The notes under the pieces are model-generated. The model made no database searches and was not told the DNA's origin. It saw only the letters and a list, made by a program, of their open reading frames with translations. Both the position numbers and the translations under genes were made by a program. A stretch of DNA of 64,000 bases from the NCBI GenBank assembly GCA_016785015.1, contig JADHTJ010000004.1, forward strand, positions 16,142 to 80,141, in the 5' to 3' direction. This stretch comes from Anaerolineales bacterium. Lineage in GTDB: Bacteria > Chloroflexota > Anaerolineae > Anaerolineales > UBA11858. This document shows, piece after piece, positions 7,601 through 42,820 of the stretch (positions are counted from its first letter, which is position 1; every line of letters begins with the position of its first letter).

Positions 7601-9232
7601 TTACTTTAGAAGTTCATTATGTATCAAAGCCAGCCCAAACTCATTTTGGTAGAAAATACTGTAACCATCCAACTGATTTTGATATGCATCCCCATAGAAT
7701 TGCTGCCAGGCAAGCATATCACCAGGATCAACAGCACTTTCAACAACATCGGGTTTGATAAACTCGATAACATAGGCCATCTCGAGCAAGAGCAAATCAG
7801 GCTGATGCTGGTTGACATAATCATACGATGCCAATTTCCACTTCATCAGAATATCATAATTGGGCTTTGGAGGCACATACGCGGTCGGGTCGCGGTAGAT
7901 TTTCAACGGTTGTTTGTCAATATTTTGTTCGACCAAAAGCTGCTCGATATCATGGTAGAAAGCGATACTCTCCGAGCGTTCTTCGCGATGTAGGATATCA
8001 GTATAGATTTGGATATCTTTCTGGATATAAATTCCAAATTGGATTAGAAGCAGGATCATCACACCAACTGGAAAGAGGAGCTGATTCACTTTTTGAAGAG
8101 TAAACTGTCTCCAAACATCTTTCCCAAAAGAAATGCGCTCTGGAAAGAGGTGCACTAAACTCGACCCGAGGGGGATTATCAATGGTAAAAAGTAGAGTGG
8201 CCTGATCGACGATGTGCCCACGGTAAAGAGATACGGCAAGATATACATCAAGATCATCACATTGAGCAATCTAAATCGAGGGCTAGTGATTCCTTTGACA
8301 AGTCCCAAGAGCATGATAATCAGCGTGAACCAATGAGCATAGAAGGGCCAGACAATACGATTGATCTTCTCAGCAGTCAAATTCCAGTCAGGATTGACTG
8401 TGTAATATCCTGTGCGAGTTTGCACAAACTGAAGTTGCTGAGTCGCAATTATCTCTGCTCTTTCCTGCGGCACAAGCAGCAAGGGATTTGAGATTACCAA
8501 ACCCAAGATCATTACGATGACGAAAGAAATCGCTAAGATAAATGCACGTTGAAGAACTATTTTTTTCGCAGCAACACCCCAAACGAGATATACAGGAATA
8601 GCTAAAACAAAAAATGCGCCCGAATACTTGACGCTAAAGGCAATTCCACAAATGAATGCAGCAATGTAGAAGCACTTTCCATAATTGAAAGCATCTTTGT
8701 CTATGAAGAAAAAGATCAGCACTACAAGGAGGATTGCTAAACTATCCGGGTGCCACCAAAAATTATTCTGAATCACCGCGGGGATGGCCAACAAAAATAA
8801 TACTGTCCCCAAAGCTTTGAAGAGAGATTTGCGCCTGGCCTGAAGTTCTACCATCAAGGCTACAGAAACGATCATCGGCAGCACGCTGACCAACTGTCGC
8901 AAAAGCAGCATGAGCACAGAGATATTATTGCCCCAATCGGCCCCTGCTAACAATCGATATGAAAACACCATTAACGCTGAAAAGAAATAGAATGGATAGC
9001 CGTAAAAATAATGCAGATAAACGAAGAAACGCCGTAGAGCATCATAAAGGGAATCTCCAGATTTCAACATGCGCACCACATGATTTATCTGAGCGAACTC
9101 ATCCTTCTCGAAGATGGATAACATGTTGATATCTTTCGCGCCAGTGAAATTGGGAAAAATCATCAATGTAAAATAGATGATCCCTATTACGACAATGCCG
9201 AGTAGTGCTTTTCTTTCAGTCGGTATTTTCAT
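7601..9232 (-). CDS. large polytopic membrane protein, GT-C (ArnT/PMT/YfhO-like) glycosyltransferase candidate
   Basis: About 543 aa from ATG 9232 (MKIPTERKALLGIVVIGIIYF...). The longer track start at 9340 would overlap the upstream gene by 125 nt. It has more than 10 hydrophobic segments, an acidic first loop (FEKDEFAQ) and a soluble C-terminal ~130 aa. The family call rests on architecture only. Confidence 0.45.
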   Translation of the reverse strand: MKIPTERKALLGIVVIGIIYFTLMIFPNFTGAKDINMLSIFEKDEFAQINHVVRMLKSGDSLYDALRRFFVYLHYFYGYPFYFFSALMVFSYRLLAGADWGNNISVLMLLLRQLVSVLPMIVSVALMVELQARRKSLFKALGTVLFLLAIPAVIQNNFWWHPDSLAILLVVLIFFFIDKDAFNYGKCFYIAAFICGIAFSVKYSGAFFVLAIPVYLVWGVAAKKIVLQRAFILAISFVIVMILGLVISNPLLLVPQERAEIIATQQLQFVQTRTGYYTVNPDWNLTAEKINRIVWPFYAHWFTLIIMLLGLVKGITSPRFRLLNVMILMYILPYLFTVGTSSIRPLYFLPLIIPLGSSLVHLFPERISFGKDVWRQFTLQKVNQLLFPVGVMILLLIQFGIYIQKDIQIYTDILHREERSESIAFYHDIEQLLVEQNIDKQPLKIYRDPTAYVPPKPNYDILMKWKLASYDYVNQHQPDLLLLEMAYVIEFIKPDVVESAVDPGDMLAWQQFYGDAYQNQLDGYSIFYQNEFGLALIHNELLK

Positions 9233-10667
9233 ACTCACTCGAGAGGATTGAGGGTCTTGAAAAAATCTGCGCACTGGCCGTGACCAATCCAAACAGTACC
9301 CACATGTTGGGGACAGCAAAAGAATCGACAGAAAAAGCAACCCCCAAGAAAACCACCAAACTCAAAAGGCCGGCTTGACCCAGATAACGTGCTTCAGGAT
9401 GAGGCGTCATAAAGAGGTAAAGTGCACAACCCAAAACCCCGACCAAAAATGCCAAAAACGCTGCTGTGCCCAATAATCCTGTTTCGGCTAAGATGCGCAC
9501 AAACATATTTTTGGGCACAACCACTCTGTTGCGACCGTCTGCTGGAGTGAACTTGAGCAGCAACTCTGGCGTGGGAAACAAGGGACGATCTGATAGTTTC
9601 TCTTCAAAATAAAAAGTGTAGTTCCCCAAGCCGATTCCCATCCAAGGATATTCATCGTAGATGCGGTAGGCGGTTTCCCAGTAGGCAATGCGCTGACTGA
9701 CGGCAATATATTGAATATACGAGCCAGCCGCGTTCTCATCGCTCCAATAATTCCACAGGCGTGAAAAATATCGATTGCGTGAACCAGCGATGAACACAAT
9801 CACGCCGATGGCAACAACCAAAACACCAACTTGCAATACTCGTTTGGCAATCATCCCCCAAGGTTTCCCCTTGTCAGTAACTTTGCGGGGTCTGAACATG
9901 AATGCCAAAACTAACTGCACCACCCAGAGTACGTAGCCTGTGCGCGAATAGGTATAGATCAACACCACAGAAGCCCAAACCAGGAGCAGCATCTCGACGG
10001 TCAGCCAGCGAAGACGCCAGCGGAAAGCTGTGTAGTTGGACAAAACCGCGGCGAACAACCAGGGCATTAGCAAAAATGAGATTTGCTCCGCGAACCAATT
10101 TGGTTCGTAGGTCATCCCAGATATGCGTGTTTCAAATAAACCCCGCACAGAGATAAAGCCCTGTAGGTGTTCAATGAAATCAAAATATTCGGGTGAATAG
10201 AAAAGAATATAACTAATCTGGATCGACCCCCACAACAAAGCCATCACAAAACCACCATACAACCAACGTAGAGAAAAGCGCATCTCATCTTTCGAAGATG
10301 GTGTTACAGCCACGGTGATATAGAATGCAATCCCTATTGCTAAGGTGACCAACATACGGAAGGTCCGCGAAGACACTGTGATGCCAATATCAGGGTCGAT
10401 ACCTTGGGTAAATGCAATGGTGGTGCTGGCAATGGCCGCTAACCCAAAAGCACCCAAAGGGAATGCGGTTTTAGGGATTGGTTTGCTAAGTAAGCGTGGG
10501 ATCGTTACAAGTATGACAAGAATGACCAAAGGATAAAGTGAAAGCGGCCGAACTTCAGTGCGTCCTCCCACACCGCCTGGGAAAAAGGGAAAGCTGGTCA
10601 CTGGCAGTGAAATAAGGAATATGGCCCAAACAATTTTCTGGGCAATTGGAAACCAAGATAGACGCAC
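9216..10667 (-). CDS. O-antigen ligase / polymerase-like (Wzy_C-type) polytopic membrane protein
   Basis: Multi-TM protein with the Wzy_C-like block LLLVWASVVLIYTYSRTGYVLWVVQLVLAF and a large loop before the last TMs. I chose the start at GTG 10667 because GGAGAG lies 7 nt upstream and it overlaps the upstream TAG by 1 nt. The track's TTG at 10715 is the alternative. Confidence 0.6.
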   Translation of the reverse strand: MRLSWFPIAQKIVWAIFLISLPVTSFPFFPGGVGGRTEVRPLSLYPLVILVILVTIPRLLSKPIPKTAFPLGAFGLAAIASTTIAFTQGIDPDIGITVSSRTFRMLVTLAIGIAFYITVAVTPSSKDEMRFSLRWLYGGFVMALLWGSIQISYILFYSPEYFDFIEHLQGFISVRGLFETRISGMTYEPNWFAEQISFLLMPWLFAAVLSNYTAFRWRLRWLTVEMLLLVWASVVLIYTYSRTGYVLWVVQLVLAFMFRPRKVTDKGKPWGMIAKRVLQVGVLVVAIGVIVFIAGSRNRYFSRLWNYWSDENAAGSYIQYIAVSQRIAYWETAYRIYDEYPWMGIGLGNYTFYFEEKLSDRPLFPTPELLLKFTPADGRNRVVVPKNMFVRILAETGLLGTAAFLAFLVGVLGCALYLFMTPHPEARYLGQAGLLSLVVFLGVAFSVDSFAVPNMWVLFGLVTASAQIFSRPSILSSEYENTD

Positions 10668-11725
10668 TATGCTTCTCTCCGCTGGGATATTCGAACTAGA
10701 CCAATCAACAGCCAAGCAGCGACTGCCAAGATCCCGCCTACTAACATCAATGTTCCCGAAGGGCGTACATCTTCGACTTGAGCGGATACCTCTTTCGATT
10801 TTTCTAAATCCATAGCCGCAGATAGTCCTAAGCTTTTCTCCGCCGCTTCAGCGTATTGTGAAGATAACGTGTCGTGTTGCTCTTCTAGAAATTCAATTCT
10901 TTCGGGCAAGATCTCAAGGTCGCTCTCAACCATAACAGTGGCGCGCTCCACCCAGGCCAGGTATTCAGCAGGAGATTCATCGGGGATAGGATAATCTTCG
11001 AGAAGTTCAGACCAACCCAGGTTCCAGTCCGCGGCTTGTGTAGTTTGAGACAATAAACGCCAATGGTCATAGGATCCCATGGGATCATCCAACGATGCAT
11101 CTTCCAATTCTCGTTTGGCTTCTTCTAATTCTGCCTTTATCTGCATCAGAGTCTGATATCGCACTAACTGGTATGTTAATTCATCCGCCGTTGCCACCAA
11201 GGAAGCGTCTAAGGCAACCATCTCGCGGGCGCTATTGATGCCAATATTCATGCGCTCATCGATCACTTCTGCCCAGGTATCAACTGCCTGAATTGCCAGT
11301 TCAGGCTGCGCTGCATCGGCGGCTAGATGCCAGCGGCCAGCATTACGCCACGAACCACGCAACTGATAAAAAATATCTTCAACGGTGACATCATTCCAGC
11401 TTTTGTCTGTTGATTGCAAACGCGTTAATGTATCAGACAGGAATTCATCGGTTAGCGATAAGCCGTTGATCTGTTCCATCTGCCAATTTTTGTAGTCATC
11501 AAGTTTGCGCAATTCATCTTGAACAATCTGAACGATATAGCGATCGCGCGGGCCGCGATAGGCGTTGATACCGACATATAAATCTAATTCTGCCCGATAT
11601 AAGGGAGGCATCAATCTGGATACTCCCCACCCCAAAACAGCGCCTACTAAAAAGCAGAGTGCAATGATATACCAGCGGTGTGTTAATGTAAAAACTACGT
11701 CGCGTAAGTTCCAATCGTTGTTCAT
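10667..11725 (-). CDS. Wzz-like polysaccharide chain-length determinant (PCP) protein
   Basis: 352 aa with the classical PCP topology. An N-terminal TM (WYIIALCFLVGAVLGWGVS) is followed by PPLYRAELDLYV. A long helical/coiled middle (LMQIKAELEEAKRELED...) follows, then a C-terminal TM (LMLVGGILAVAAWLLIGLV). Confidence 0.7.
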   Translation of the reverse strand: MNNDWNLRDVVFTLTHRWYIIALCFLVGAVLGWGVSRLMPPLYRAELDLYVGINAYRGPRDRYIVQIVQDELRKLDDYKNWQMEQINGLSLTDEFLSDTLTRLQSTDKSWNDVTVEDIFYQLRGSWRNAGRWHLAADAAQPELAIQAVDTWAEVIDERMNIGINSAREMVALDASLVATADELTYQLVRYQTLMQIKAELEEAKRELEDASLDDPMGSYDHWRLLSQTTQAADWNLGWSELLEDYPIPDESPAEYLAWVERATVMVESDLEILPERIEFLEEQHDTLSSQYAEAAEKSLGLSAAMDLEKSKEVSAQVEDVRPSGTLMLVGGILAVAAWLLIGLVRISQRREA

Positions 11726-14093: not shown

Positions 14094-14855
14094 TTACAAG
14101 GCTTGAAGATATTGGCCTACAACTGCTGACACTTTCCCTTGTGCGGCTACCTTTCCATCCTCCAGCCAGATAGCTCGCTCACAAAGCGCTTTCACTCTTT
14201 CCATGCTGTGCGAAACCAACACAATGGTTGTACCTTGTTCTCGAAAAGCGTTCATACGAGCCAAACACTTCTCCTGAAATTGCGTATCTCCAACGGACAG
14301 AACCTCGTCCACCAGCATAATATCCGGTCGCACGCTCGTCGCCACGGCAAAACCCAGGCGAGCCACCATCCCAGTGGAATAGGTTCGCAAAGGCGCGTTG
14401 ATGAATTCACCGATCTCAGAAAAAGCAACGATCTCATCAAAACGATGACCAACAGTCTTTTGGGTCAATCCGAGCAATGCACCGTTCAGGAAGATATTTT
14501 CCCGACCCGATAATTCAGGATGGAAACCCGCCCCAAGATCGAGCAGGGGGGCCGTTCTCCCCAAAATGACGACTCTTCCTAATGTCGGTTTGATGACCCG
14601 CGCCATTGTCTTCAGCAGAGTGCTCTTCCCCGCGCCATTGCGTCCAACAATCCCGAAGAATTCACCTCGCTGAATATCAAGAAAGACATCTTTCAGTGCC
14701 CAAAATTTCTTGTATTGCAAGCGATTCTGGAGCCAACGGATAACATACTCCTTGATCCCCGAGAGTTGTTCATGGGGTACCCGATATTGGACTGAGACGC
14801 TATCGACAAGAATTACGGGCTTTTGTTCCTGAGTGATATTGATATTCGACATCAA
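14094..14855 (-). CDS. wzt: polysaccharide/teichoic-acid ABC exporter ATP-binding protein (Wzt/TagH-like), nucleotide-binding domain only
   Basis: 253 aa with Walker A GRNGAGKST, signature-like YSTGMVARL and Walker B IMLVDEVLSVGD. The N-terminal region (VQYRVPHEQLSGIKEY) is typical of Wzt/TagH. No C-terminal carbohydrate-binding extension. Confidence 0.85.
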   Translation of the reverse strand: MMSNINITQEQKPVILVDSVSVQYRVPHEQLSGIKEYVIRWLQNRLQYKKFWALKDVFLDIQRGEFFGIVGRNGAGKSTLLKTMARVIKPTLGRVVILGRTAPLLDLGAGFHPELSGRENIFLNGALLGLTQKTVGHRFDEIVAFSEIGEFINAPLRTYSTGMVARLGFAVATSVRPDIMLVDEVLSVGDTQFQEKCLARMNAFREQGTTIVLVSHSMERVKALCERAIWLEDGKVAAQGKVSAVVGQYLQAL

Positions 14856-14902
14856 GATACTATTTTAGAACGAAATCCACGAAGAACACTAAGATTATTT
14901 TT

Positions 14903-15012
14903 GGTTCTATGGGAATTGCCGTGAGAGACCTCGCATTTGGGGGTATGGGGCGTGCTCTGCACGCTCCCTACCCCCAAATGTGGCCCCTTACCACGGCGAT
15001 TTCTAGAGACCC
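14903..15012. repeat. palindromic intergenic repeat, family A copy 2 (inverted flanks relative to copy 1), between wzm and wzt
   Basis: ggttctatgggaattgccgtgagagacctcgcatttgggggtatggggcgtgctctgcacgctccctacccccaaatgtggccccttaccacggcgatttctagagaccc. ORF 14852..15061 is only its translation. Confidence 0.85.
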
Positions 15013-15044
15013 TTATTTTTGTGTTCCTTCGTGAACTTCGTGGT

Positions 15045-15872
15045 TTACAGACGATACGCATATTCGCTAGATTTTGACGTAAAAACTAAACCGCCGATTA
15101 AGAAAGTTCCTAAGGCAAACGCCGTGGCTGGAAGCCAGATATCCCATCCAGGGATAGATCCTGACAACAGGGGTTCCCGAAACGCTTCCACGAAGTAATA
15201 AATTGGATTGATCCGAAACAACCAATGCCATTGCTGGGGGACAATCTCTAAGGGGTAAATTATGGGCGTAGCATACAACCAGATGGTCAGGAGAACATTG
15301 TAAACAGGCAGCATGTCAGCAAAATAGACAGTTGCCGTTGAGAGAAGCAAACCCAAACCCAGTGAAAAAAATGACAGCAGAATTATCACCACAACCCAGG
15401 ATAATATTGCAAGTCTCAAAGGGTTCCCTAACACCAACGCGATCAATAACAACGGCAGCAATGAGAGGATGAAATTAACTAAACCTGTTCCGATTGCCGC
15501 CACGGCAAAGACTGATTTTGGCACATAGATGCGTTTGATCAATTCGCCACTCCAAAGCATCTCCCCCATCGCTCCGCTTGTCGTCGTTGAGAAAAAGATC
15601 CACACCAACTGGCCGCTGAGAACATAAATTGGAAAGTTTTCAATTTGAATGCGGAAGAGCTGCGAGAAAACCACTGTAAGCACAATCATGGTTAATAAGG
15701 GATTGAGCATCGTCCACATCACGCCAAGCATCGAACGTTTATAGCGCGTCTTGATCGCCCGGGCGACAAACTGTACCACCAAACCACGGTACGCTTTCAG
15801 CGCCTGGAATTCTTCCACAAAGGGATGACCAGCACTGGATGAGTCATAAAATGTCATTGAAAATTTCTTCAT
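15045..15872 (-). CDS. wzm: ABC-2 type polysaccharide exporter permease (Wzm/TagG-like)
   Basis: 275 aa with 6 TM segments. The N-terminal block ARAIKTRYKRSMLGVMWTMLNPLLTMIVLTVVFS is the ABC-2 membrane-domain signature. It lies adjacent to the Wzt-like ATPase. Confidence 0.85.
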   Translation of the reverse strand: MKKFSMTFYDSSSAGHPFVEEFQALKAYRGLVVQFVARAIKTRYKRSMLGVMWTMLNPLLTMIVLTVVFSQLFRIQIENFPIYVLSGQLVWIFFSTTTSGAMGEMLWSGELIKRIYVPKSVFAVAAIGTGLVNFILSLLPLLLIALVLGNPLRLAILSWVVVIILLSFFSLGLGLLLSTATVYFADMLPVYNVLLTIWLYATPIIYPLEIVPQQWHWLFRINPIYYFVEAFREPLLSGSIPGWDIWLPATAFALGTFLIGGLVFTSKSSEYAYRL

Positions 15873-15885: not shown

Positions 15886-17991
15886 CTACGGGGCTACGCG
15901 ATAAAGCTCAACGCCTTTCTGGTTATATTCTAAACGAGTATATCGTTCAAAGAAATCTTGATTTAGAGCTTGAGTTTTATAGATTTCCGGTCGGTGTTCT
16001 TGCTCTGGGGGATACACCAAGATGTAATCATAGTCTCCATCAAAAAGGTTTTGTGCCAATTCATCAGAGGTTCCTGCACTGTGAAGGGTTTGATAAGCAT
16101 CCTTTGAAAAGAATATCCCATAAATCTCGGATTTGGTATACAAGCGGAGTTCATTTCCCACAGAAAGTACTTTGAAACTTCCCTGCTGATCCAGGTACTC
16201 AAATGCTCCATACACTGGCAAGATTCGATCTACGAACGCCTCTTGAGATTCTTCTCCACGCCAAATTTGAAATGGGTATCTTTCAGGGATCTCCCACCAA
16301 CGGACAGTGAAGGATAACCTGGTTGAGAAGACATACACCAACCCAAGGAAAATGAAACTGATACCTAAAATTCTCCGTTGGTCAAATAAAAAACTTCCCA
16401 AAGATTCTACATTCAATGCTGCCAAAATACTGAGCAAAGGGAAAAGCGGCATCATATAACGAGCATGGGCACCAAAGCCAAAGAGCATTGCCATTGCCAA
16501 TAATGATGCCACGAATATCAGCAAATATCGTAAGCGCTCTTTATGCCAGCCATAAAACCATGGCAAGCTGAGCAATGGCAGAGCGCCCAAAACACCCCCC
16601 GGAGATTCGTGATAGTAATTGTGAGAGTCTGCGATCCCCAGCCAGGGAAAATAGAGAAACCGCTGCAGGGTGTTCAGCGTGGGCTGGAATACAAAGAAGT
16701 TTCGATCAAACCACTCAGGGCTTTGGAAGAGGGAGTTCAAATTTGGGAATATGGGATTGCCAGTCCACAGCCAGTCACGAATCAACCAGGGAAGCCCTAA
16801 TAAAAGCGCTGGAAAGATGATAAGTAGAGTTGATTTTTCTACCCGCTTGTTTTCCCGATAAAACGTAACTAATATCAGCCCCCAAAAAGGAATTAGTATC
16901 AAGAGTGCATTCAGTTTCGTTCCCAGCGCCAGACCAGAGAATATACCAACCACCAAAAGCCAGCGATTGTCATCGCTTTCCTTCCACAGTAGAGCGACCT
17001 GGAACGCAGAGGTGACAAAAAGTGCCAGAAAAATATCGATATACGTTGTGGCTGATTCAATGCCAATAATAGGCAGTGAAAATAAGAGCACAGCCGCGAT
17101 CCAACCCACCAGCTTATTCCCAATTCGCACCCCAAGGTAATAGGTTTGAATTACGAGAAGAATGCCCGCTGTAAAATTGATCAATCCCGGTAACGGCTGA
17201 TCTCCTAAGGCAAAGGCGATCACATAGAGCATTTCTCCATAATGAGCGAAATAGGTTTGGAAAGACTCAGGGAGTTCGAGCATCCGCCCCGCTTCGAGAA
17301 ATTTCACGGGGACGGCCAGATGATAGCTCACAGAATCATAACGTACCGCGGGTGCTAAAGCCCAGAAGAAGCTTCCGATAGCGATGATTAGGATCAGGCT
17401 CAAACCCAGTGCACCAATCCACGAATTTGGCACAATTTTCGGGCGCCATTGGGTCCAGCGTGGCCAATATCTCCAGGCTCCCCACAGAGAGATGATCACA
17501 AAGATGCCATAAAAAATCCATTTCGGGTATAAGCCCACGACTCCCAAGGCGAAAGTCGCCACAACCAGCACACCCCAACCCAAAACAACGTTCAAAACCG
17601 CCCCCTCACCAGCAGGAATCGCATCGGGCTTAGATATCCACAGAGAAAGCGTTTCTCCAACACACCAACTAACCCACAGAATCCACAACAATAGCAGGAT
17701 GCTTAAGGCAAGATATTTTGTTGTGAGTGCTACGAGTATCACCACCCCTGCAATCATCCAAACCGAAATTCCCAACCAACGGTATCGCTGAAAAATCAAA
17801 AGTAGGCCGATAAAAACAAAAAGGAGCAAATAGCCCAAAGCAATCAGCGAATCGTTTGGATATGAGACGTAGGGGAAATCTGGGTCAATGAATGTTGAGA
17901 GTGAAAACCAGATGCTGGCGCTTAAACTAAAAACGACCCCTGCTCCGCTTATTACGTTCCAAATGATTTGTTTAGACCTCACCATGCTCAC
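15886..17991 (-). CDS. GT-C family glycosyltransferase candidate (ArnT/PMT_2-like), polytopic membrane protein with soluble C-terminal domain
   Basis: 701 aa with more than 12 TM segments. The loop RYDSVSYHLAVPVKFLEAGRM...YFAHYGEMLY and following helices resemble PMT_2/ArnT-type enzymes. A soluble ~140-aa C-terminus is present. Confidence 0.5.
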   Translation of the reverse strand: MSMVRSKQIIWNVISGAGVVFSLSASIWFSLSTFIDPDFPYVSYPNDSLIALGYLLLFVFIGLLLIFQRYRWLGISVWMIAGVVILVALTTKYLALSILLLLWILWVSWCVGETLSLWISKPDAIPAGEGAVLNVVLGWGVLVVATFALGVVGLYPKWIFYGIFVIISLWGAWRYWPRWTQWRPKIVPNSWIGALGLSLILIIAIGSFFWALAPAVRYDSVSYHLAVPVKFLEAGRMLELPESFQTYFAHYGEMLYVIAFALGDQPLPGLINFTAGILLVIQTYYLGVRIGNKLVGWIAAVLLFSLPIIGIESATTYIDIFLALFVTSAFQVALLWKESDDNRWLLVVGIFSGLALGTKLNALLILIPFWGLILVTFYRENKRVEKSTLLIIFPALLLGLPWLIRDWLWTGNPIFPNLNSLFQSPEWFDRNFFVFQPTLNTLQRFLYFPWLGIADSHNYYHESPGGVLGALPLLSLPWFYGWHKERLRYLLIFVASLLAMAMLFGFGAHARYMMPLFPLLSILAALNVESLGSFLFDQRRILGISFIFLGLVYVFSTRLSFTVRWWEIPERYPFQIWRGEESQEAFVDRILPVYGAFEYLDQQGSFKVLSVGNELRLYTKSEIYGIFFSKDAYQTLHSAGTSDELAQNLFDGDYDYILVYPPEQEHRPEIYKTQALNQDFFERYTRLEYNQKGVELYRVAP

Positions 17992-34374: not shown

Positions 34375-34493
34375 CTGTCATTCTGAGCCCTGTCGCCAAA
34401 GGCGTGCAGAGCAAAGGGCGAAGCATGCCCTGAGCATGTCGAAGGGAATTTCTCCTAGCATAGTTCAGATCCTTCGCTTGCTCAGGATGACAG
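34375..34493. repeat. MITE-like palindromic intergenic repeat, family B copy 2
   Basis: Termini are ctgtcattctgagc ... gctcaggatgacag, in the same plus-strand orientation as copy 1. ORF 34331..34516 is only its translation. Confidence 0.8.
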
Positions 34494-34540
34494 TCAAATG
34501 AAAAATACTCGCACATGGCGTTATTTCGCTACTTGCTCAG

Positions 34541-36430
34541 TCAATCCTTGGCTGTCGCTTCGATATATGCGTCCGATAGCCTGTTAATAGCAACGATGAA
34601 TCCTTCACCGCCGCGCTGATGCCCACGCCATATCTCTGGGATCATTGTGCCGTGATAATCTTTGACAATTTTGAAGAACCTGACCCAATCAATATTGCCT
34701 TGGCCAACCTGCAACCCTTCTCCGTCTATTCCAGCCGCATCAGAAAGGTGCAAATGTGAGATATAAGGCAAAATGACTTCGACTTGCTCATAAAAATCTA
34801 CCTTAGCCCAATTGCAATACAGCTTATGGTGCGATGTATCATAGCAAGTCATCATGCCCATCGAATCAAGGAATTCCTTGATCTCATGAGTATCCATAAA
34901 AGCATTGGTCAACCACTGACCACCGAAATACCAGGGGTGAGGCGGCAAGTTTTCGATTAACACTTCTACGCCATCGCAGTCAAGTTCTTCTACGGAACGC
35001 TTAAGATTATCGTACAATCCTTGACGGTCCGTTATTGGGTTGTCAATGCTGGCCGCTCCAGGATGTACGACTACTTTCGGGGTACCCACAAAATGCGGGG
35101 CCATATCTCGAGTGACATTGATGGCCCTTTGCAGGATATTCACGGAAGCCCTGCGATGGTCATCATCAAAGGTGCATAAATCCACCAAATGGTTCGTCCA
35201 AAATTCAGGTGCATGGATAACTAATTGAACATCTAGATCATCCCCAGGGTAAGGTTCATCCAGGTCTTTATCTGTAAAATGGAATTCCAACAGAGGTGGA
35301 TCATACTTGAGCATATTTCTAAAATCATTGAAACGTACAACGAAGCCCCACTCCATAGGCAGGGTATGCTCCATATCGAGCGTCACCCGGCGACCGATAT
35401 CAACGGGCAAATATGGCTCGTCAGCTTCAATGTCTCGCACAGATACTCGGCCAATCAAATCAGTATAACGCTGCGGAGATAGCCCCTGGCCAGGACCCTT
35501 TACCGTCACCATTTCACGAGTAATCTCTTCCCCGGGCTTAATATGCCGTGTTGCCACCAAACTCTTGGCCAGAACTTCACGGTTGAGTATCTCGCCCATA
35601 GTAAAGAATTTCTCTTCACTAGTACCCATAGCAATTGATATCTGCCGGATATCTCGCACCATTTTCTTGAACCCATGGGGTTCGAGGCTCGAGGCATGAT
35701 CAGGCCCATCCATGGTGCGGTCGAGTGTAATATGGCGTTCAATAATACTGGCACCCAATGCGGCAGCCACTGTTGATACCGAGATCCCGCGTTCATGCCC
35801 TGAATATCCGACCGGTACACCATAGTCACGTAGGCGATCCATAAAACGCAAATTGATATCACCGAATGCCGCCGGATAGGCACTGTTACAATGCAATAGC
35901 GCGAATTCCGCATCGCGTTCCTTGAGAAACGCGACTGTCGTTTCAACTTCTTCCATGCGAGACATGCCCGTTGATACGATCAGCGGTTTGCCTTTGTCGA
36001 TGAGATAATCGATTAAGGGCAAATTGATCATATCTGCTGAGGCAACTTTGAATGCGGGCACCCCCAAAGATTCGATAAAATCGGCGCTATCCTGATCAAA
36101 GGCTGAACACATGAAGGTCACGCCCTTTTCACGGCAATAGTCAACGATTTTGTGATAGTCAGCATCCGAGAGTTCGACTTGCTGCAAAATGGGCAGCAAA
36201 TAATTTAAGTTCTTCTCACCGACATTGGCGTTATCGAGGTATTTTTTGGGGTACAGCTTTTCAAGATTGCGTTTCTGAAATTTAACTGCGTCTACTCCTG
36301 CATCAATTGAAGCATCTATCAATTCGAAAGCGTATTCCAAAATCCCATTATGGTTGACGCCAATTTCAGCAATGATATAAGCCGGATGTCCATCACCAAC
36401 AAGCTGGTCACCAATTTTTATCTCAGGCAT
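34541..36430 (-). CDS. NeuB-family (N-acylneuraminate/ulosonate) synthase with SAF domain fused to a xylose-isomerase-like TIM-barrel (AP_endonuc_2-type) domain
   Basis: 629 aa. The NeuB N-terminus is AYIIAEIGVNHNGILEYAFELIDASIDAGVDAVKFQK, plus LHCNSAYPA and SGHERG. The SAF-like segment is SLVATRHIKPGEEITREMVTVKGPGQG. The C-terminal ~265 aa (LEFHFTDKDL...VVHPGA...ENLPPH...SHLHLSDA) looks like a sugar-phosphate isomerase/epimerase TIM barrel. Confidence 0.7.
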   Translation of the reverse strand: MPEIKIGDQLVGDGHPAYIIAEIGVNHNGILEYAFELIDASIDAGVDAVKFQKRNLEKLYPKKYLDNANVGEKNLNYLLPILQQVELSDADYHKIVDYCREKGVTFMCSAFDQDSADFIESLGVPAFKVASADMINLPLIDYLIDKGKPLIVSTGMSRMEEVETTVAFLKERDAEFALLHCNSAYPAAFGDINLRFMDRLRDYGVPVGYSGHERGISVSTVAAALGASIIERHITLDRTMDGPDHASSLEPHGFKKMVRDIRQISIAMGTSEEKFFTMGEILNREVLAKSLVATRHIKPGEEITREMVTVKGPGQGLSPQRYTDLIGRVSVRDIEADEPYLPVDIGRRVTLDMEHTLPMEWGFVVRFNDFRNMLKYDPPLLEFHFTDKDLDEPYPGDDLDVQLVIHAPEFWTNHLVDLCTFDDDHRRASVNILQRAINVTRDMAPHFVGTPKVVVHPGAASIDNPITDRQGLYDNLKRSVEELDCDGVEVLIENLPPHPWYFGGQWLTNAFMDTHEIKEFLDSMGMMTCYDTSHHKLYCNWAKVDFYEQVEVILPYISHLHLSDAAGIDGEGLQVGQGNIDWVRFFKIVKDYHGTMIPEIWRGHQRGGEGFIVAINRLSDAYIEATAKD

Positions 36431-36449
36431 ATTTTTTCTCCATTACGAT

Positions 36450-37202
36450 CTAAAAATCTTCAATCGTAAATCCTAAATCGTCTATTGAAATCTCCCCATT
36501 AACTAATAATCTTTCCGCACGTTTCCAATCATCAGGCGAGTCGATATCTACCCACTCGCTGGGATCAATAATTAGGGGCAAGATATGATCACCTGTCATG
36601 GAATTCTTTTCAATGATGGTATCCACCCAGGCAGCATCCACATAGCCAGTCTGCCAGTAAATTTCTGGCAGCGCTTGACGGGGCTGATTGTAGGGTTCGT
36701 TTGGGATACCCAAATCTAATCCGATTGGCTGCATCAGACCATCTTGCCCAATGCGCCACATCTTGTATGGGTTTTGGAAGGGGATACAAACTGTGCGAAC
36801 GGCGTCAGCTTCTGGGTGCTCAATCAATCGCAGGACTGCCTGATCGATATGCCAAACCCGGCGAAATGGGGACGTCGGCCGCAGTTGAACAACGATGTCG
36901 GGCTTATAGCCCTCGTTAGCATCCAACCATTCCAAAGCGTGCTGGAATACCGGCAAATCTGGTGTCTGATCTCGGGCGTGTTCTTCGGGACGAGTGAAGG
37001 GGGTTTCTGCCCCATAGCGGCGGGAGATTTCGGCGATCTCATCATCATCGGTCGAAACAATCACTCGCGTGACAGTTTCCGCAGTCAGACCAGCCGCGAT
37101 GCTGTAGGCTATCAGGGGGTAACCGGCGAAATCAATTACGTTTTTTCGAGGAATGGATTTTGAGCCACCCCGGGCGGGGATAAGTGCGAGAACTTCAGTC
37201 AT
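36450..37202 (-). CDS. acylneuraminate cytidylyltransferase family protein (CMP-ulosonate synthetase, NeuA-like)
   Basis: 250 aa with the canonical N-terminus VLALIPARGGSKSIPRKNVIDFAGYPLIAYSI. Confidence 0.8.
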   Translation of the reverse strand: MTEVLALIPARGGSKSIPRKNVIDFAGYPLIAYSIAAGLTAETVTRVIVSTDDDEIAEISRRYGAETPFTRPEEHARDQTPDLPVFQHALEWLDANEGYKPDIVVQLRPTSPFRRVWHIDQAVLRLIEHPEADAVRTVCIPFQNPYKMWRIGQDGLMQPIGLDLGIPNEPYNQPRQALPEIYWQTGYVDAAWVDTIIEKNSMTGDHILPLIIDPSEWVDIDSPDDWKRAERLLVNGEISIDDLGFTIEDF

Positions 37203-37220
37203 ATTTCAGTTATCTGTAAA

Positions 37221-37248
37221 CAGTGTTCAGTGTTCAGTGTTCAGTACT
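37221..37248. repeat. heptanucleotide tandem array (CAGTGTT x3 + CAGTACT)
   Basis: cagtgttcagtgttcagtgttcagtact, read directly. It forms the left outer arm of the 37203-37429 intergenic palindrome. Confidence 0.85.
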
Positions 37249-37253
37249 TGTAC

Positions 37254-37367
37254 TGATGTTACGCAGCTCCCTGAGCGGAGAGCCTGGCGCGTTCTTCGAC
37301 TGCGCACATGCTCCGCTCAGAATTCTCCAGGCTCGCAGTCGAAGGGGCGAGGAAGTGCGTAACATCA
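37254..37367. repeat. palindromic intergenic element, family C copy 1 (TGATGTTACGCA / TGCGTAACATCA clamp)
   Basis: A 12-bp terminal clamp encloses three perfect complementary pairs arranged in crossing order: ctgagcggag(37271-80)/ctccgctcag(37311-20), gagcctgg(37280-87)/ccaggctc(37327-34), and cttcgactgcg(37294-304)/cgcagtcgaag(37334-44). Confidence 0.8.
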
Positions 37368-37400
37368 ATTAGTAAGTCAGTAAAGAGCTAGTTTACTGAC
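37367..37400 (-). terminator. candidate hairpin/terminator just downstream of the SDR gene
   Basis: The minus strand reads gtcagtaaa ctagctc tttactgac followed by ttactaatt. The stem is 9 bp, AT-rich, and the tail is only moderately U-rich. Confidence 0.3.
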
Positions 37401-37428
37401 AACTGTTCACTGATTACTGAATACTGGC
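37401..37428. repeat. degenerate heptanucleotide array (AACTGTT CACTGAT TACTGAA TACTGGC), inverted partner of 37221..37248
   Basis: Its reverse complement, gccagta ttcagta atcagtg aacagtt, has the same nnCAGTn period-7 pattern and pairs imperfectly (about 70% by eye) with the left array. Confidence 0.7.
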
Positions 37429-37429
37429 A

Positions 37430-38251
37430 CTACCAAGTCGTCCATCCACCATCGACGATGAGATTGGCGCCGGTCATGTATTTGGAAGCCTCAGATGCTA
37501 AAAACAACACTGCCCCATTCATCTCGTCTTTTTCAGCCATGCGCCCGATCACTGCGCGTGCCGAGTAAGCTTCGACAAATTCATCATTATGGTCATTAAA
37601 AACCCCACCAGGAGTCAATGCGTTAACGCGGATGCCCTTACCAGCATAGTAGGCCGAGAGATATTTAGTCATTCCCAACACTCCGGCTTTGGTGACCGTA
37701 TAATAAACTGGCTTGAATTGTGGGGGTTCTCCCTTACGCTGGTACATGCGTTGATCTGGCGCGGTTACTCCATAAATCGAAGAGACATTGATAATTACGC
37801 CACTCTCTTGATCCAACATGGGTTTGACAGCAACCTGACTACAAAGGAAAATTCCGGTCAGATTTACGTCAAGAGCCTGCTGCCACAATTCAAGCGGATA
37901 ATCTTCAAATGCACCCGAATGGGATTTCTTTGATTGGGGATCGAACTTGGGATCTAATGCCGCGCTGTTGACCAGGATGTCAAGTCGGTTGAAGTTCTTC
38001 AGGGACGAATCCACCATTGCTTGGGCAGAATCAGCATTGGTCACGTCTGTCTCAATCCCCAGGGCATGGAATCCGCTTTGGGACAGAGAAGCCGCTAAAT
38101 CCATGGCGGCCTCCCCATTCAAATCTGCTATGACCACGACAGCACCTGCTTGAGCCAGGGTCCAACAAAATTCTGCCCCCAACAACCCTGCTCCGCCTGT
38201 TACAACTGCTACACGACCTGTTAAATCAAATAGATCTGGGAGTTCGGGCAT
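37430..38251 (-). CDS. short-chain dehydrogenase/reductase (SDR) family oxidoreductase
   Basis: 273 aa with VAVVTGGAGLLGAEF, NSAA, and S...YTVTKAG (YxxxK). Confidence 0.8.
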   Translation of the reverse strand: MPELPDLFDLTGRVAVVTGGAGLLGAEFCWTLAQAGAVVVIADLNGEAAMDLAASLSQSGFHALGIETDVTNADSAQAMVDSSLKNFNRLDILVNSAALDPKFDPQSKKSHSGAFEDYPLELWQQALDVNLTGIFLCSQVAVKPMLDQESGVIINVSSIYGVTAPDQRMYQRKGEPPQFKPVYYTVTKAGVLGMTKYLSAYYAGKGIRVNALTPGGVFNDHNDEFVEAYSARAVIGRMAEKDEMNGAVLFLASEASKYMTGANLIVDGGWTTW

Positions 38252-38261
38252 TCTCTAATTC

Positions 38262-39986
<1,725 letters not shown>

Positions 39987-41150: not shown

Positions 41151-41212
41151 GGGCTTACTTCTTATTTGTAAATCTACTGGATGGTATATAATTTGGCACA
41201 TTCGAATAGAAA

Positions 41213-42820
41213 ATGGGTATAGCCTTTATGAACTCTCTCAAGAAAAACTGGCTCATTGTTTCGTTATTAATTGTTTATTTCATTTACGCAGGCCTATATA
41301 TCTATCAGACCAGCTTCATTTCTGATGGCACTCGATATTTCGTTCTTTTTGACGATGCCATGATTTCAATGCGTTACGCCAAGAATTTCGCAGATGGTTA
41401 TGGGTTGGTTTGGAACCCTGGCGAAACGCCCGTCGAGGGGTATACAAATCCCTTATGGGTGATGTTCATGGCGTTCTTTCATTTGTTCCCACTTCCCACA
41501 GAAAAAATCAGCCTGGCAATTCAAATAAGTGGGGCAATCTTTTTAGGTGCAAATCTGATATTGGTCAAGAAGATCACCAATTTGATTTCTTCGAGTTTTC
41601 TATTGCCCCTCTTCGCAATACTGCTAACTGCCTTTTATACACCCCTGAACAACTGGGGCTTACAAGGCATGGAAGTCAGCATTTTGGTACTCCTGCTCAG
41701 TGTTGCCGTCTGGAAATTGCTGGTAGATTTCAACGACGACAAGTTTTCCCCATGGCCCTATCTTCTACTTGGTTTTGGAACGTTTGTCAGAGTTGATATG
41801 GCTGTGGCCTATCTTGTGCTGATAGGTTTTAGCGTTGTCTTTATTCCTAAATATCGCTGGCGGCATTTGCTGTGGGGTGTTGGATTGCTTGTTGCATTTC
41901 TTGCCAGCCAAACTCTTTTCCGGATTTGGTATTATGGCGATCCTTTGCCAAATACCTATTATCTAAAAATGAGCGGAATACCTCTCCTCACCCGTGTCAA
42001 ACGTGGTTTATATGTGCTCTACCAATTCGTATGGGAAATGAACTGGGTCTTACTCGCTCTCCCCTTCGCCTATTTAGTATTCAAACGAGACCGCAAAACG
42101 ATCCTGCTTGCATTGTTGGTACTTGGTCAACTTGCCTACAGCGTTTACGTTGGTGGAGATGCCTGGGAACATAAAGGTGGTGCCAACCGTTATATTGCTT
42201 TAGCAATGCCGATGTTCTTCATTCTATTCGTTTATTCAATCGACCAGATACTTCAAGCAATAAAATCCTCGAGCGCAATTCCAAACACCCCAATTTCAAC
42301 ACAAACCATGGTAAATATGGCGCTCGTAACAGCAATACTCGCAAGCCTCATAAATTTCAACTTCATCCAAAAAGATATTCGATACTTAGAACGCTGGTTG
42401 CTGCTCAGGCCGCCAATCTTCATCGAGGGCAATAAAGAAGCGGTACGTATCGCATCAGCGGTTCGAAAAGTCACCACTTCAGATGCTGAAATTGGCGTCG
42501 TCACTGCTGGGGCAATTCCATATTTCGCTGACCGCCTTTCTCTCGATCTACTGGGGAAAAATGACGCATATATTGCCCATTTACCCAGTCACATCGCTTC
42601 GTCATTGGATGACATCCGTCCTGGACATATGAAATGGGATTACGACTATTCGATTGGCCAACTCAAGCCGGATATGATCCTGCAATTGTGGGGCGATAAA
42701 ACAATCGCCTATGACTATATTGAACAGTACTACACTGTGATCGAGGTTGATGGGATGTTATTCTCTGCCCGGAGTGATTCTCCATATATTTTGTGGGATC
42801 GCGTCGATTCAACCCCTTAG
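41213..42820 (+). CDS. polytopic membrane protein, GT-C-like glycosyltransferase candidate; only plus-strand gene in the cluster
   Basis: 535 aa. First loop: [38 protein letters not shown], an Asp-rich first extracytoplasmic loop as in GT-C enzymes. It has more than 10 TM segments and a soluble C-terminal ~130 aa. The start could be ATG 41228. Confidence 0.45.

What the first reader, a model, noticed from the sequence alone, without database searches (positions are those of the whole stretch)
7601..42820. Five GT-C-like polytopic membrane proteins in one locus
Seen in sequence: 7601..9232, 15886..17991, 24332..25879, 25883..27409 and 41213..42820 each encode 500-700 aa proteins. Each has more than 10 TM segments, an acidic first loop (e.g. 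[17 protein letters not shown]) and a soluble C-terminal domain.

Established knowledge: GT-C enzymes (ArnT, PMT, PglB, EmbC, YfhO and others) act on the outer face of the membrane using polyprenyl-phosphate-linked donors.

Inference: the exported polymer, or proteins, would receive several distinct extracytoplasmic glycosyl decorations. Such a density of GT-C genes is otherwise typical of mycobacterial arabinogalactan/LAM loci, not of ABC-type O-antigen-like loci.
Basis: partly seen in the sequence, partly recalled or inferred. Interest (0 to 1): 0.55.

Follow-up and report, generated by a model that had tools for sequence, protein, structure and literature searches.

The report
Six membrane glycosyltransferases in one glycan locus
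The five membrane proteins are real and all belong to the GT-C class of outward-facing sugar-adding enzymes (a sixth was missed), sitting in a roughly 70 kb cell-surface sugar-polymer gene cluster conserved across Anaerolineae bacteria; this is a sound but largely expected annotation, not a new kind of system.

Summary
All five ORFs exist at the stated coordinates and encode polytopic membrane proteins with 112-150 aa soluble C-terminal tails.

- **Assignments.** Three pass Pfam's threshold for PMT_2 or PMT (15886, 24332, 25883). The fourth (7601) scores just below it, but 22 of 32 family members hit PMT_2. The fifth (41228-42820, no Pfam hit) is a distant AftB relative by family profile and by an AlphaFold model (pLDDT 89). 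Its D43 and R188 align with AftB's catalytic D62 and R221.
- **A sixth candidate.** An orphan protein (48127-50334) has only 18 homologues. Its model matches only GT-C structures, and only weakly.
- **Context.** The source is an uncultured Anaerolineales (Chloroflexota). The locus combines two ABC exporters, nonulosonic-acid synthesis, PAPS synthesis and sulfotransferases, methyltransferases, a Wzy_C ligase-like protein and an LCP ligase. Gene order around the P3/P4-type and P5-type genes is conserved across Anaerolineae.
- **What is missing.** No lipid-linked-sugar donor synthase or flippase lies in about 85 kb, so donors and acceptors remain inferred.
- **An anomaly.** The window's 25883 protein has lost a near-invariant first-loop aspartate.

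Verdict: new members of a known kind, of moderate interest.

The parts
7601..9232 (-). P1: PMT_2-like GT-C, 543 aa, immediately downstream of the Wzy_C gene
   Evidence: PMT_2 scores 24.8 bits, just below the 26.1 gathering threshold. 22 of 32 family members hit PMT_2, 7 hit PMT and 3 hit GT87. The family profile matches the P3/P4 profile with hhalign probability 89%, E 2.4e-6. D44 and E45 are invariant.
15886..17991 (-). P2: PMT/ArnT-like GT-C, 701 aa, with an extra N-terminal block of about 6 TM segments, directly upstream of Wzm/Wzt
   Evidence: Pfam PMT 35.2 bits and PMT_2 30.2 bits, both above threshold. The family profile hits ArnT 5ezm at E 1.1e-4. Most homologues are about 880 aa and carry a C-terminal carbohydrate-binding module that this copy lacks. 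D219 is invariant.
24332..25879 (-). P3: PMT_2 GT-C, tandem paralogue of P4, retains the family's loop-1 aspartates
   Evidence: PMT_2 37.5 bits. 33% identical to P4 over the full length. Motif [14 protein letters not shown].
25883..27409 (-). P4: PMT_2 GT-C, core member of the module conserved across Anaerolineae; D46 is replaced by G in this clade
   Evidence: PMT_2 57.8 bits. 471 relatives were found, with conserved synteny. The D46G change is shared with orthologues of 68% identity or more.
41228..42820 (+). P5: AftB-like GT-C, 530 aa, the only + strand gene in the locus
   Evidence: More than 2,900 homologues. The family profile hits AftB 9dlf at E 3.9e-5, with D43 aligned to D62 and R188 to R221 (PMC12041299). 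AlphaFold pLDDT 89, pTM 0.91. Foldseek's top hit is AftB 9dlh at E 4e-7. 12 of 35 members hit PMT_2.
48127..50334 (-). P6: orphan 735 aa polytopic protein, probable sixth and very divergent GT-C, with a beta-sandwich insert at residues 114-227
   Evidence: Only 18 homologues. No Pfam, NCBIfam or PDB profile hit. AlphaFold pLDDT 80.7. The top 21 Foldseek hits are all GT-C, but E is only 1e-3 to 0.09 and TM about 0.3. D304 is invariant.
9216..10715 (-). Wzy_C (O-antigen ligase / O-oligosaccharyltransferase-type) membrane protein
   Evidence: Pfam Wzy_C 53.4 bits.
14094..15872 (-). Wzt (14094-14855) and Wzm (15045-15872), an ABC-2 glycan exporter
   Evidence: Pfam ABC_tran and ABC2_membrane.
1673..3106 (-). 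LytR-CpsA-Psr (LCP) glycopolymer-to-peptidoglycan ligase; last gene of the locus
   Evidence: Pfam LytR_cpsA_psr 134.7 bits. Unrelated pantothenate genes follow.
17972..24260 (-). Cytoplasmic chain-building enzymes: a methyltransferase fused to two GT4 domains (1189 aa), a GT2, and a GT2-sulfotransferase fusion
   Evidence: Pfam. The GT2s resemble chondroitin/heparosan synthase and TuaG, not lipid-sugar synthases.
27621..39986 (-). Nonulosonic-acid and sulfation module: MptE-like protein, SDRs, 2-hydroxyacid dehydrogenase, CMP-transferases, GT2, sulfotransferase, Capsule_synth protein, NeuB fusion, PAPS synthase
   Evidence: Pfam. Gene order is conserved in related loci.
42817..63466 (-). Second half of the locus: GFO oxidoreductase, sulfotransferase, BFO_1060-like GT, methyltransferases, three GT2 paralogues flanking P6, CMP-transferase, DUF4910, N-acetyltransferase, GT4, NeuB, and sugar dehydratase/reductase genes
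   Evidence: Pfam and NCBIfam. Paralogy of the three GT2s at 32-46% identity. The locus continues about 10 kb past the window to a second Wzm/Wzt pair.

Best explanation
**Shown.** The five ORFs are GT-C-fold membrane glycosyltransferase homologues from at least three lineages.

- P1, P3 and P4 are PMT_2/ArnT-like.
- P2 is PMT/ArnT-like, with an N-terminal TM extension.
- P5 is a distant AftB-like enzyme that keeps the catalytic Asp and a phosphate-binding Arg.
- A sixth, orphan protein (P6) probably has the same fold.
- All sit in one glycan-assembly locus of about 70 kb, nearly all on one strand, in an uncultured Anaerolineales bacterium. Its core is conserved across Anaerolineae.

**Inferred.**

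1. One or two polymers are built in the cytoplasm on a polyprenyl carrier by GT2 and GT4 enzymes. They would be rich in nonulosonic acid, sulfated and methylated.
2. Two Wzm/Wzt ABC transporters export them.
3. On the outer face, the GT-C enzymes add branch or cap sugars from polyprenyl-phosphate-linked donors.
4. The product is then fixed to peptidoglycan by the LCP enzyme, or to another acceptor by the Wzy_C protein.

This is the logic of mycobacterial arabinogalactan assembly. The donor synthases and flippases must lie elsewhere in the genome.
For: - **Fold and family.** Searches support the GT-C assignments.
- **Catalytic residues.** Invariant loop-1 acids are seen. P5 D43 aligns with AftB D62 and R188 with R221 (read against PMC12041299).
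- **Glycan acceptor.** Most P2-family homologues carry an extracytoplasmic carbohydrate-binding module. EmbC, AftD and GT136 enzymes do the same (PMC11127046).
- **Locus content.** ABC exporters, Wzy_C, LCP, GT2/GT4, NeuB, CMP-transferases, PAPS synthase and sulfotransferases are all present.
- **Functional linkage from synteny.**
  - 96 of 120 P3/P4-family genes lie next to a GT2 or GT2-sulfotransferase homologue.
  - P5 keeps a fixed position in 17 of 30 long loci.
  - P6 keeps its three flanking GT2 paralogues at 47% identity.
  - P1, P5 and P6 homologues list the same longest-contig lengths in several relatives.
Against: - No GT2 in the window has the C-terminal TM helices of GtrB/ArnC/Dpm1-type lipid-sugar synthases. 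Their best matches are chain-building GT2s.
- No UbiA/DprE-type or GtrA/SMR/MATE-type gene lies in the window or about 20 kb of flanks.
- The window's P4 lacks the near-invariant Asp of the PPLDF motif and may be inactive.
- Structural support for P6 is weak (TM about 0.3).
- The P1 and P3/P4 profiles do not reach any solved GT-C structure by sequence.
- No chemistry, donor or acceptor has been measured.
Confidence: 0.6

Rival explanations
1. Some or all of these GT-C proteins glycosylate proteins rather than a polymer. They could act as PMT-type O-mannosyltransferases on Pro/Thr-rich secreted proteins. Alternatively they could be oligosaccharyltransferases that move the finished lipid-linked glycan en bloc onto surface proteins, as in S-layer protein glycosylation.
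For: - Pfam's best families are the protein mannosyltransferase families PMT and PMT_2.
- The Foldseek hits for P5 and P6 include PglB, AglB and STT3 oligosaccharyltransferases.
- Two secreted proteins with long Pro/Thr-rich tracts are encoded in the locus. These are 3110-4435, and 40221-41201, which has a lipobox.
- A Wzy_C protein is present, the family that also includes O-oligosaccharyltransferases (my knowledge).
- A distant P1 homologue sits alone beside a 2616 aa surface protein and a sortase.
Against: - P2-family members usually carry a carbohydrate-binding module.
- P5's closest relative, AftB, acts on a polysaccharide.
- The P3/P4 and P5 genes are embedded among sugar-nucleotide and sulfation genes, not next to a conserved protein substrate.
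- An LCP ligase closes the locus.
Confidence: 0.22
2. Several of the proteins keep the GT-C fold but are not transferases. They would serve as non-catalytic partners, scaffolds, or carrier-lipid or flippase-associated proteins. P4 (Asp lost) and P6 are the candidates.
For: - The D46G change in P4 is conserved in its clade, while the tandem paralogue P3 keeps the Asp.
- P2 has a weak NCBIfam hit to the 'flippase activity-associated protein Agl23'.
- P6 matches no sequence family.
Against: - P4 keeps every other family-invariant residue, and two further loop-1 aspartates, D39 and D42.
- P6 has an invariant Asp (D304) just before a short helix that follows a TM helix, the usual place for a GT-C catalytic residue.
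- The other four have intact acidic motifs.
Confidence: 0.1
3. The clustering is incidental. These are general housekeeping GT-C enzymes of a GT-C-rich phylum that merely lie near a glycan locus.
For: Distant homologues of P1 (39-44% identity) and P6 (43%) occur in unrelated neighbourhoods. The genome-wide GT-C count for this organism could not be measured.
Against: - Position and orientation of the P3/P4 and P5 genes are conserved inside the same modules across deep divergence.
- All but P5 are co-directional, with short or overlapping intergenic gaps.
- P1, P2, P5 and P6 stay with the locus in closer relatives.
Confidence: 0.05

Closest known systems
Mycobacterial AftB (terminal beta-1,2-arabinofuranosyltransferase; structures 9dlf and 9dlh) and the arabinogalactan/LAM GT-C set (AftA, AftC, AftD, EmbA/B/C)
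   Same: P5 matches AftB best by both profile and fold. The DD motif (D43 = D62) and R188 = R221 are conserved. The locus logic is also the same: cytoplasmic synthesis, Wzm/Wzt export, several extracytoplasmic GT-C enzymes, and an LCP ligase.
   Different: - Only about 17% identity to AftB.
- A different phylum (Chloroflexota).
- No decaprenyl-phospho-arabinose pathway genes (UbiA-type synthase, DprE1/2) in about 85 kb.
- The polymer appears to carry nonulosonic acids, sulfate and methyl groups rather than being an arabinogalactan.
ArnT (GT83) and the bacterial PMT_2 / PMT (GT39) families
   Same: P1-P4 hit PMT_2 or PMT. The P2 family profile aligns to ArnT 5ezm. All have a loop-1 acidic motif followed by a polytopic core and a soluble C-terminal domain.
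   Different: - No lipid A or Ara4N pathway is present.
- No MIR domains.
- P2 has an extra N-terminal TM block.
- P1 scores below Pfam's threshold.
- P4 lacks one conserved Asp.
Three-component extracytoplasmic glycosylation systems (GtrA/GtrB/Gtr*, Klebsiella gmlABC, Citrobacter GT136 system; PMC11127046)
   Same: GT-C enzymes sit inside a glycan locus, including ABC-transporter-dependent ones, and modify the polymer after export. A CBM-bearing GT-C architecture is seen in the P2 family.
   Different: The other two components, a lipid-sugar synthase and a flippase, are not encoded in or near this locus. There are five or six GT-C genes rather than one.
S-layer glycan (slg) clusters of Geobacillus and Paenibacillus (WsaE, WsaB, Wzm/Wzt); comparison from my own knowledge
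   Same: ABC-dependent synthesis, a large methyltransferase plus double-GT protein (17972-21541), and a Wzy_C-type transferase.
   Different: Those clusters are not known to contain multiple GT-C enzymes, nonulosonic-acid synthesis or sulfation genes. No S-layer protein has been identified here.

Membership tests
GT-C superfamily (GT-C_A fold) | Polytopic membrane core of 7-13 TM helices plus an extracytoplasmic domain | tested here: met
   Hydropathy gives 8-15 segments and 112-150 aa C-terminal tails for all five. The P5 model has the expected helix pattern.
GT-C superfamily (GT-C_A fold) | Conserved acidic catalytic residue at the tip of the first juxtamembrane helix, in loop 1 | tested here: met
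   - P5: D42 and D43 invariant, at the start of helix 42-55.
- P1: D44 and E45 invariant.
- P2: D219 invariant.
- P3: has the family's D38, D41 and D45.
- P4 is an exception. It has G at the position of the near-invariant D, though D39 and D42 remain.
GT-C superfamily (GT-C_A fold) | Structural similarity to solved GT-C enzymes | tested here: met
   - P5: the top 34 Foldseek hits are all GT-C, the best being AftB (E 4e-7, TM 0.58).
- P6: the top 21 hits are all GT-C but weak, so inconclusive for P6.
They rest on Pfam and profile evidence.
GT-C superfamily (GT-C_A fold) | Uses a polyprenyl-phosphate(-diphosphate)-linked donor on the outer face of the membrane | not testable with these tools
   This needs biochemistry. 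Topology and donor are inferred from the family.
AftB family (P5) | DD motif with a catalytic nucleophile (D62), plus R221 and R372 | tested here: met
   The HMM alignment places P5 D43 on D62 and R188 on R221 (residue roles from PMC12041299). R372 lies outside the aligned region and was not tested.
AftB family (P5) | Significant sequence similarity over the whole enzyme | tested here: inconclusive
   The profile hit has E 3.9e-5 but covers only residues 41-248. Foldseek aligns 574 columns at 17% identity.
AftB family (P5) | Co-occurring decaprenyl-phospho-arabinose pathway (UbiA-type PRPP transferase, DprE1/DprE2) | tested here: not met
   No such gene is present in the 64 kb window or about 20 kb of flanks. 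The rest of the genome is unavailable.
Pfam PMT_2 (PF13231) | Score at or above the gathering threshold of 26.1 bits | tested here: met
   | Protein | PMT_2 result |
|---|---|
| P4 | 57.8 bits |
| P3 | 37.5 bits |
| P2 | 30.2 bits |
| P1 | 24.8 bits, not met individually; 22 of 32 relatives match |
| P5 | none individually; 12 of 35 relatives match |
Protein O-mannosyltransferase PMT (GT39) | Pfam PMT above threshold, plus a protein acceptor (Ser/Thr-rich) | tested here: inconclusive
   P2 scores 35.2 bits on PMT against a threshold of 22.7. However, P2-family members carry carbohydrate-binding modules. The acceptor cannot be tested here.
Gtr-type three-component glycosylation system | Adjacent GT2 polyprenyl-phosphate sugar synthase with C-terminal TM helices | tested here: not met
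   None of the seven GT2-type proteins has a TM segment. Their best NCBIfam and PDB matches are TuaG and chondroitin/heparosan synthase.
Gtr-type three-component glycosylation system | Adjacent small flippase (GtrA, SMR or MATE) | tested here: not met
   No such Pfam hit was found. The only small multi-TM ORF (4442-4990, 4 TM) matches nothing.
YfhO family | Pfam or NCBIfam YfhO match | tested here: not met
   No YfhO hit for any of the six proteins.

The most novel reading that the evidence does not exclude
The locus, conserved across Anaerolineae, would build a peptidoglycan-anchored heteropolysaccharide that is sulfated and bears nonulosonic acids. This polymer would form the enigmatic outer layers of the Chloroflexota envelope. 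It would be assembled by an arabinogalactan-like route in which an AftB-type retaining GT-C (P5), several ArnT/PMT_2-like GT-Cs and a previously unrecognised GT-C lineage (P6) extend the exported chain outside the cell from lipid-linked donors. That would be an independent or anciently shared counterpart of the mycobacterial cell-wall assembly line.
Probability: 0.2. Interest if true: 0.7.

Novelty: new member of a known kind. Interest (0 to 1): 0.4.

Why it matters
Chloroflexota envelopes have extra layers of unknown composition, suggested to be polysaccharide or protein (PMC13319060, citing Sutcliffe 2011). This locus is a concrete, widely conserved candidate for making such a layer. P3/P4-type relatives were found in 471 species-representative genomes, and the 80 best listed are all Chloroflexota.

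It names testable enzymes:
- an AftB-like family with more than 2,900 members and no Pfam model of its own;
- a PMT_2-like family tightly linked to GT2-sulfotransferase fusions;
- an 18-member orphan family that may be a new GT-C lineage.

It also extends the 'export first, then decorate with GT-C enzymes' strategy beyond Actinobacteria and Gram-negative O antigens. For the scan itself, the result is mainly a validated annotation.

Tried and rejected
- **Single-sequence PDB searches.** P5, P4 and P2 gave nothing relevant.
- **Family-profile PDB searches.** P1, P3/P4 and P6 reached no GT-C structure. Only the P5 and P2 profiles did.
- **NCBIfam.** Nothing useful for any of the six.
- **hhalign.**
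  - P6 family against the P1 and P5 families: no relationship.
  - P5 against P1: only 23% probability.
  - P3/P4 against P5: none.
- **Donor synthase in the locus.** I looked for a polyprenyl-phosphate sugar synthase among the GT2s by TM scan, NCBIfam and PDB. I rejected the idea because they look like chain-building GT2s.
- **Flanks.** Up to 10 kb examined beyond each window end held no UbiA, DprE, GtrA or GtrB gene.
- **Transporter reading.** Rejected, on the profile and fold matches.
- **Chance clustering.** Rejected, on synteny.
- **Literature.** Searches found no description of this locus or of GT-C enzymes in Chloroflexota.
- **Not done.**
  - P1-P4 could not be modelled, because both AlphaFold jobs went to P5 and P6.
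  - The organism's genome-wide GT-C count could not be measured, so no enrichment statistic is given.

Full report
**1. The observation**

The window is almost entirely one minus-strand gene array.

| Label | Coordinates | Length | Note |
|---|---|---|---|
| P1 | 7601-9232(-) | 543 aa | The mechanical ORF runs to 9340. Homologues of 543 aa with 100% coverage support the ATG at 9232. |
| P2 | 15886-17991(-) | 701 aa | |
| P3 | 24332-25879(-) | 515 aa | |
| P4 | 25883-27409(-) | 508 aa | |
| P5 | 41213-42820(+) | 530 aa | The identical database protein starts at 41228, MNSLKK. |

- **TM segments.** A crude hydropathy count gives about 11-12 for P1, 13-15 for P2, 9-10 for P3, 8-10 for P4 and 11 for P5.
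- **Tails.** Each has a soluble C-terminal tail of 112-150 aa.
- **Acidic first loops.** These are real and conserved.
  - D42 and D43 of P5 are invariant in 35 homologues.
  - D44 and E45 of P1 are invariant in 32.
  - D219 of P2 is invariant in 38.
  - The P3/P4 family shares R..DLTDPPLDFHPTRQ.

**2. What the proteins are**

- **P2, P3, P4.** Pfam places all three in PMT or PMT_2 above the curated thresholds.
- **P1.** It scores 24.8 bits against a threshold of 26.1. Even so, 22 of 32 family members match PMT_2, 7 match PMT and 3 match GT87. The P1 family profile also aligns to the P3/P4 profile over 341 columns (hhalign probability 89%, E 2.4e-6).
- **P3 and P4.** They are tandem paralogues, 33% identical over their full length.
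- **P2 family.**
  - The family is large: 8,465 representatives at E below 1e-3.
  - Its profile reaches ArnT (5ezm, E 1.1e-4).
  - Most members are about 880 aa, because they carry a C-terminal carbohydrate-binding module (CBM structures, E about 5e-7). The window's copy lacks it.
  - A CBM on a GT-C enzyme argues for a glycan acceptor, as in EmbC, AftD and the GT136 enzyme (PMC11127046).
- **P5.** It has no Pfam or NCBIfam hit of its own.
  - It belongs to a very large, strongly conserved family: more than 2,900 hits, many at 55-60% identity, almost all unnamed.
  - A 35-member profile hits one solved family, mycobacterial AftB (9dlf, E 3.9e-5). In that alignment P5 D43 falls on AftB D62 and R188 on R221.
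  - The AftB structure paper identifies D62 as the catalytic nucleophile of a DD motif, and R221 as a phosphate-stabilising residue essential for activity (PMC12041299).
  - The AlphaFold model is confident (pLDDT 89.2, pTM 0.91).
  - Its best Foldseek match is donor-analogue-bound AftB (E 4e-7, TM 0.58). PglB, ArnT, ALG12, STT3, AglB, ALG9 and AftA follow, so the first 34 hits are all GT-C.
  - Twelve of 35 family members also reach PMT_2.

**3. A sixth candidate**

- It has about 12-14 TM segments and a beta-sandwich insert at residues 114-227.
- It has only 18 homologues among 5.8 billion clusters.
- It has no Pfam, NCBIfam or PDB-profile hit.
- Its profile shows no similarity to the P1 or P5 families.
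- Its model is decent (pLDDT 80.7, pTM 0.81). The 21 best Foldseek hits are all GT-C enzymes (STT3, AglB, DPY19, Emb, AftB, Pmt4). E-values are only 1e-3 to 0.09 and TM-scores about 0.3.
- An invariant D304 lies just before a short helix that follows a TM helix, the canonical position of the GT-C catalytic residue.

I regard it as a probable, very divergent GT-C.

**4. Context**

The exact P5 sequence is deposited from a metagenome-assembled Anaerolineales bacterium, phylum Chloroflexota. Reading the window from high to low coordinates, the locus contains the following.

- Sugar-nucleotide genes, including two NeuB synthases and four CMP-transferase-type (CTP_transf_3) proteins.
- Methyltransferases, and GT4 and GT2 enzymes.
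- A bifunctional PAPS synthase, two stand-alone sulfotransferases and a GT2-sulfotransferase fusion.
- Two Capsule_synth/BFO_1060-type transferases.
- An MptE-like protein.
- A 1189 aa methyltransferase plus double-GT4 protein.
- Wzm/Wzt, a Wzz-like protein and a Wzy_C protein.
- An LCP ligase as the last gene.

Beyond the window's high end lie a further sulfotransferase, a Capsule_synth gene, a second Wzm/Wzt pair with a Wzt_C domain, three epimerase/dehydratase genes and a MarR gene. The locus therefore spans about 70 kb. Beyond the LCP gene come unrelated pantothenate genes.

**5. Conservation**

- **P3/P4 family.**
  - A scan of species-representative genomes found 471 relatives. The 80 best are all Chloroflexota.
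  - In these 80 loci the order CMP-transferase, 2-hydroxyacid dehydrogenase, SDR, MptE-like, GT-C, GT2-sulfotransferase, (GT-C), GT2 is kept almost without exception.
  - 96 of 120 family genes directly abut a GT2 or GT2-sulfotransferase homologue, and 61 abut the MptE-like gene.
  - Half the loci have two copies.
- **P5 family.** In 17 of 30 long loci the gene sits between the PAPS synthase and the GFO oxidoreductase/sulfotransferase pair. That is its position in the window, with the same inverted orientation, down to about 46-59% identity.
- **P6.** It keeps its three flanking GT2 paralogues in a relative at 47% identity. These paralogues are 32-46% identical to one another.
- **Stand-alone homologues.** More distant homologues of P1 and P6 sit alone.
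- **Lineage-specific insertion.** The P6 block is missing from other versions of the locus, and G+C there drops to 0.41-0.43. It looks like a lineage-specific addition.

Chance clustering is excluded.

**6. Mechanism**

*Shown:* fold, family, conserved catalytic-type residues, locus composition and synteny.

*Inferred from the biology of GT-C enzymes, Wzm/Wzt pathways and LCP ligases:*

1. One or two polymers are made on a polyprenyl carrier in the cytoplasm and exported by the ABC transporters.
2. Outside the cell, the GT-C enzymes extend or branch them from polyprenyl-phosphate sugars.
3. The LCP enzyme then attaches them to peptidoglycan, or the Wzy_C protein attaches them to another acceptor.

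*The main gap:* the donor side.

- None of the GT2 proteins has TM helices.
- Their best matches are chain-building enzymes such as TuaG and chondroitin or heparosan synthases.
- No UbiA, DprE, GtrA, SMR or MATE gene is present in about 85 kb.

*A second caveat:* the window's P4 and its orthologues of 68% identity or more carry Gly in place of the Asp of PPLDF. That Asp is present in 112 of 122 family members, and P3 retains it. P4 may therefore be catalytically altered, or a non-catalytic partner of P3. This is inference.

**7. Rivals**

- **Protein glycosylation.** PMT-type O-glycosylation, or en bloc oligosaccharyl transfer onto Pro/Thr-rich surface proteins. Two such proteins are encoded in the locus. 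This remains plausible for some members. The P2-family CBM, the AftB affinity of P5 and the LCP ligase argue against it as the main role.
- **Non-catalytic roles.** Possible for P4 and P6.
- **Transporter function or incidental clustering.** Not supported.

**8. Comparison with known systems, and novelty**

Multi-GT-C extracytoplasmic glycan elaboration is well known in Corynebacteriales. Single GT-C side-chain systems are known in O-antigen loci, ABC-dependent ones included (PMC11127046).

- P1-P4 are new members of PMT_2/ArnT-like families.
- P5 founds, or belongs to, an uncharacterised AftB-like family that is widespread in Chloroflexota.
- P6 may be a new lineage.
- Automated pipelines already label some homologues 'arabinofuranosyltransferase' or 'Ara4N transferase-like'.
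- I found no paper describing this locus.

The finding is correct and useful, but not surprising to a glycobiologist. Its wider value is as an entry point to the unknown chemistry of Chloroflexota envelope layers (PMC13319060).

Noticed in passing
window 48127-50334 (-), with 47164-48123, 50365-51399 and 51433-52386: An orphan 735 aa polytopic protein (18 homologues in 5.8 billion clusters) has a beta-sandwich insert and weak GT-C-only fold matches. Three GT2 paralogues (32-46% identical) flank it, and the same arrangement holds in a relative at 47% identity. G+C drops to 0.41-0.43 here. The block is absent from other versions of the locus, so it looks like a lineage-specific insertion.
   Followed up: partly
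window 25883-27409 (-), residue 46: The near-invariant Asp of the family motif PPLDFxPTRQ (112 of 122 members) is Gly in this protein and in its orthologues of 68% identity or more. The tandem paralogue 24332-25879 keeps it. This protein may be an inactive or altered enzyme.
   Followed up: partly
window 22389-24334 (-): A GT2-sulfotransferase fusion protein. The conserved GT2 N-terminus ([12 protein letters not shown]) is in frame upstream of the first ATG/GTG/TTG. The real start is therefore probably a non-canonical codon (ATC or CTG near 24315-24318). Homologues of this fusion alternate with P3/P4-type GT-C genes across Anaerolineae.
   Followed up: partly
window 34541-36430 (-): A NeuB-type nonulosonic-acid synthase is fused to a xylose-isomerase-like TIM-barrel (AP_endonuc_2) domain, 629 aa in all. 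The fusion is conserved in a distant relative (L001).
   Followed up: no
window 38262-39986, 31864-32715, 43825-45084, 22389-24260: A bifunctional ATP-sulfurylase/APS-kinase (PAPS synthase) and three sulfotransferase domains lie inside the glycan locus. This implies a sulfated surface glycan in an Anaerolineales bacterium. The GT2s' best structural matches are chondroitin and heparosan synthases.
   Followed up: no
window 41228-42820 (+): This is the only gene on the + strand. Its 3' end overlaps the convergent oxidoreductase gene by 4 bases. The inverted orientation between the PAPS synthase and the oxidoreductase is conserved down to about 46-59% identity.
   Followed up: yes
window 40221-41201 (-) and 3110-4435 (-): Two secreted proteins with long Pro/Thr-rich tracts lie inside the locus. 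The first has a lipobox (LASC) after its second Met, so it is probably a lipoprotein starting near 41150. Both are possible O-glycosylation substrates.
   Followed up: no
window 17972-21541 (-): An 1189 aa protein with an N-terminal methyltransferase domain and two GT4 domains overlaps the start of the P2 gene. From my own knowledge, the architecture recalls chain-terminating or polymerising enzymes of ABC-dependent pathways (WsaE, WbdD).
   Followed up: no
L084 1-10000 (about 10 kb beyond the window's high end): The locus continues outside the window with a sulfotransferase, a second Capsule_synth gene, a second Wzm/Wzt pair (Wzt with a Wzt_C glycan-binding domain), three epimerase/dehydratase genes and a MarR regulator. 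Two exporters suggest two polymers.
   Followed up: partly
window 15886-17991 (-) versus homologues P0261-P0283: Most P2-family homologues are about 880 aa, with a C-terminal carbohydrate-binding module (CBM structures, E about 5e-7). The window's copy ends at 701 aa without it.
   Followed up: partly
window 27621-28445 (-): A 274 aa MptE-like (DUF115) protein lies directly upstream of P4. It is next to a P3/P4-family gene in 61 of 120 cases. From my own knowledge, this domain occurs in Maf-type nonulosonic-acid transferases.
   Followed up: no
window 55034-57117 (-): A DUF4910/M28-peptidase-like protein and an aminoglycoside-3-N-acetyltransferase-like protein form a conserved pair inside the locus and in many related loci. 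Their role in sugar modification is unknown.
   Followed up: no
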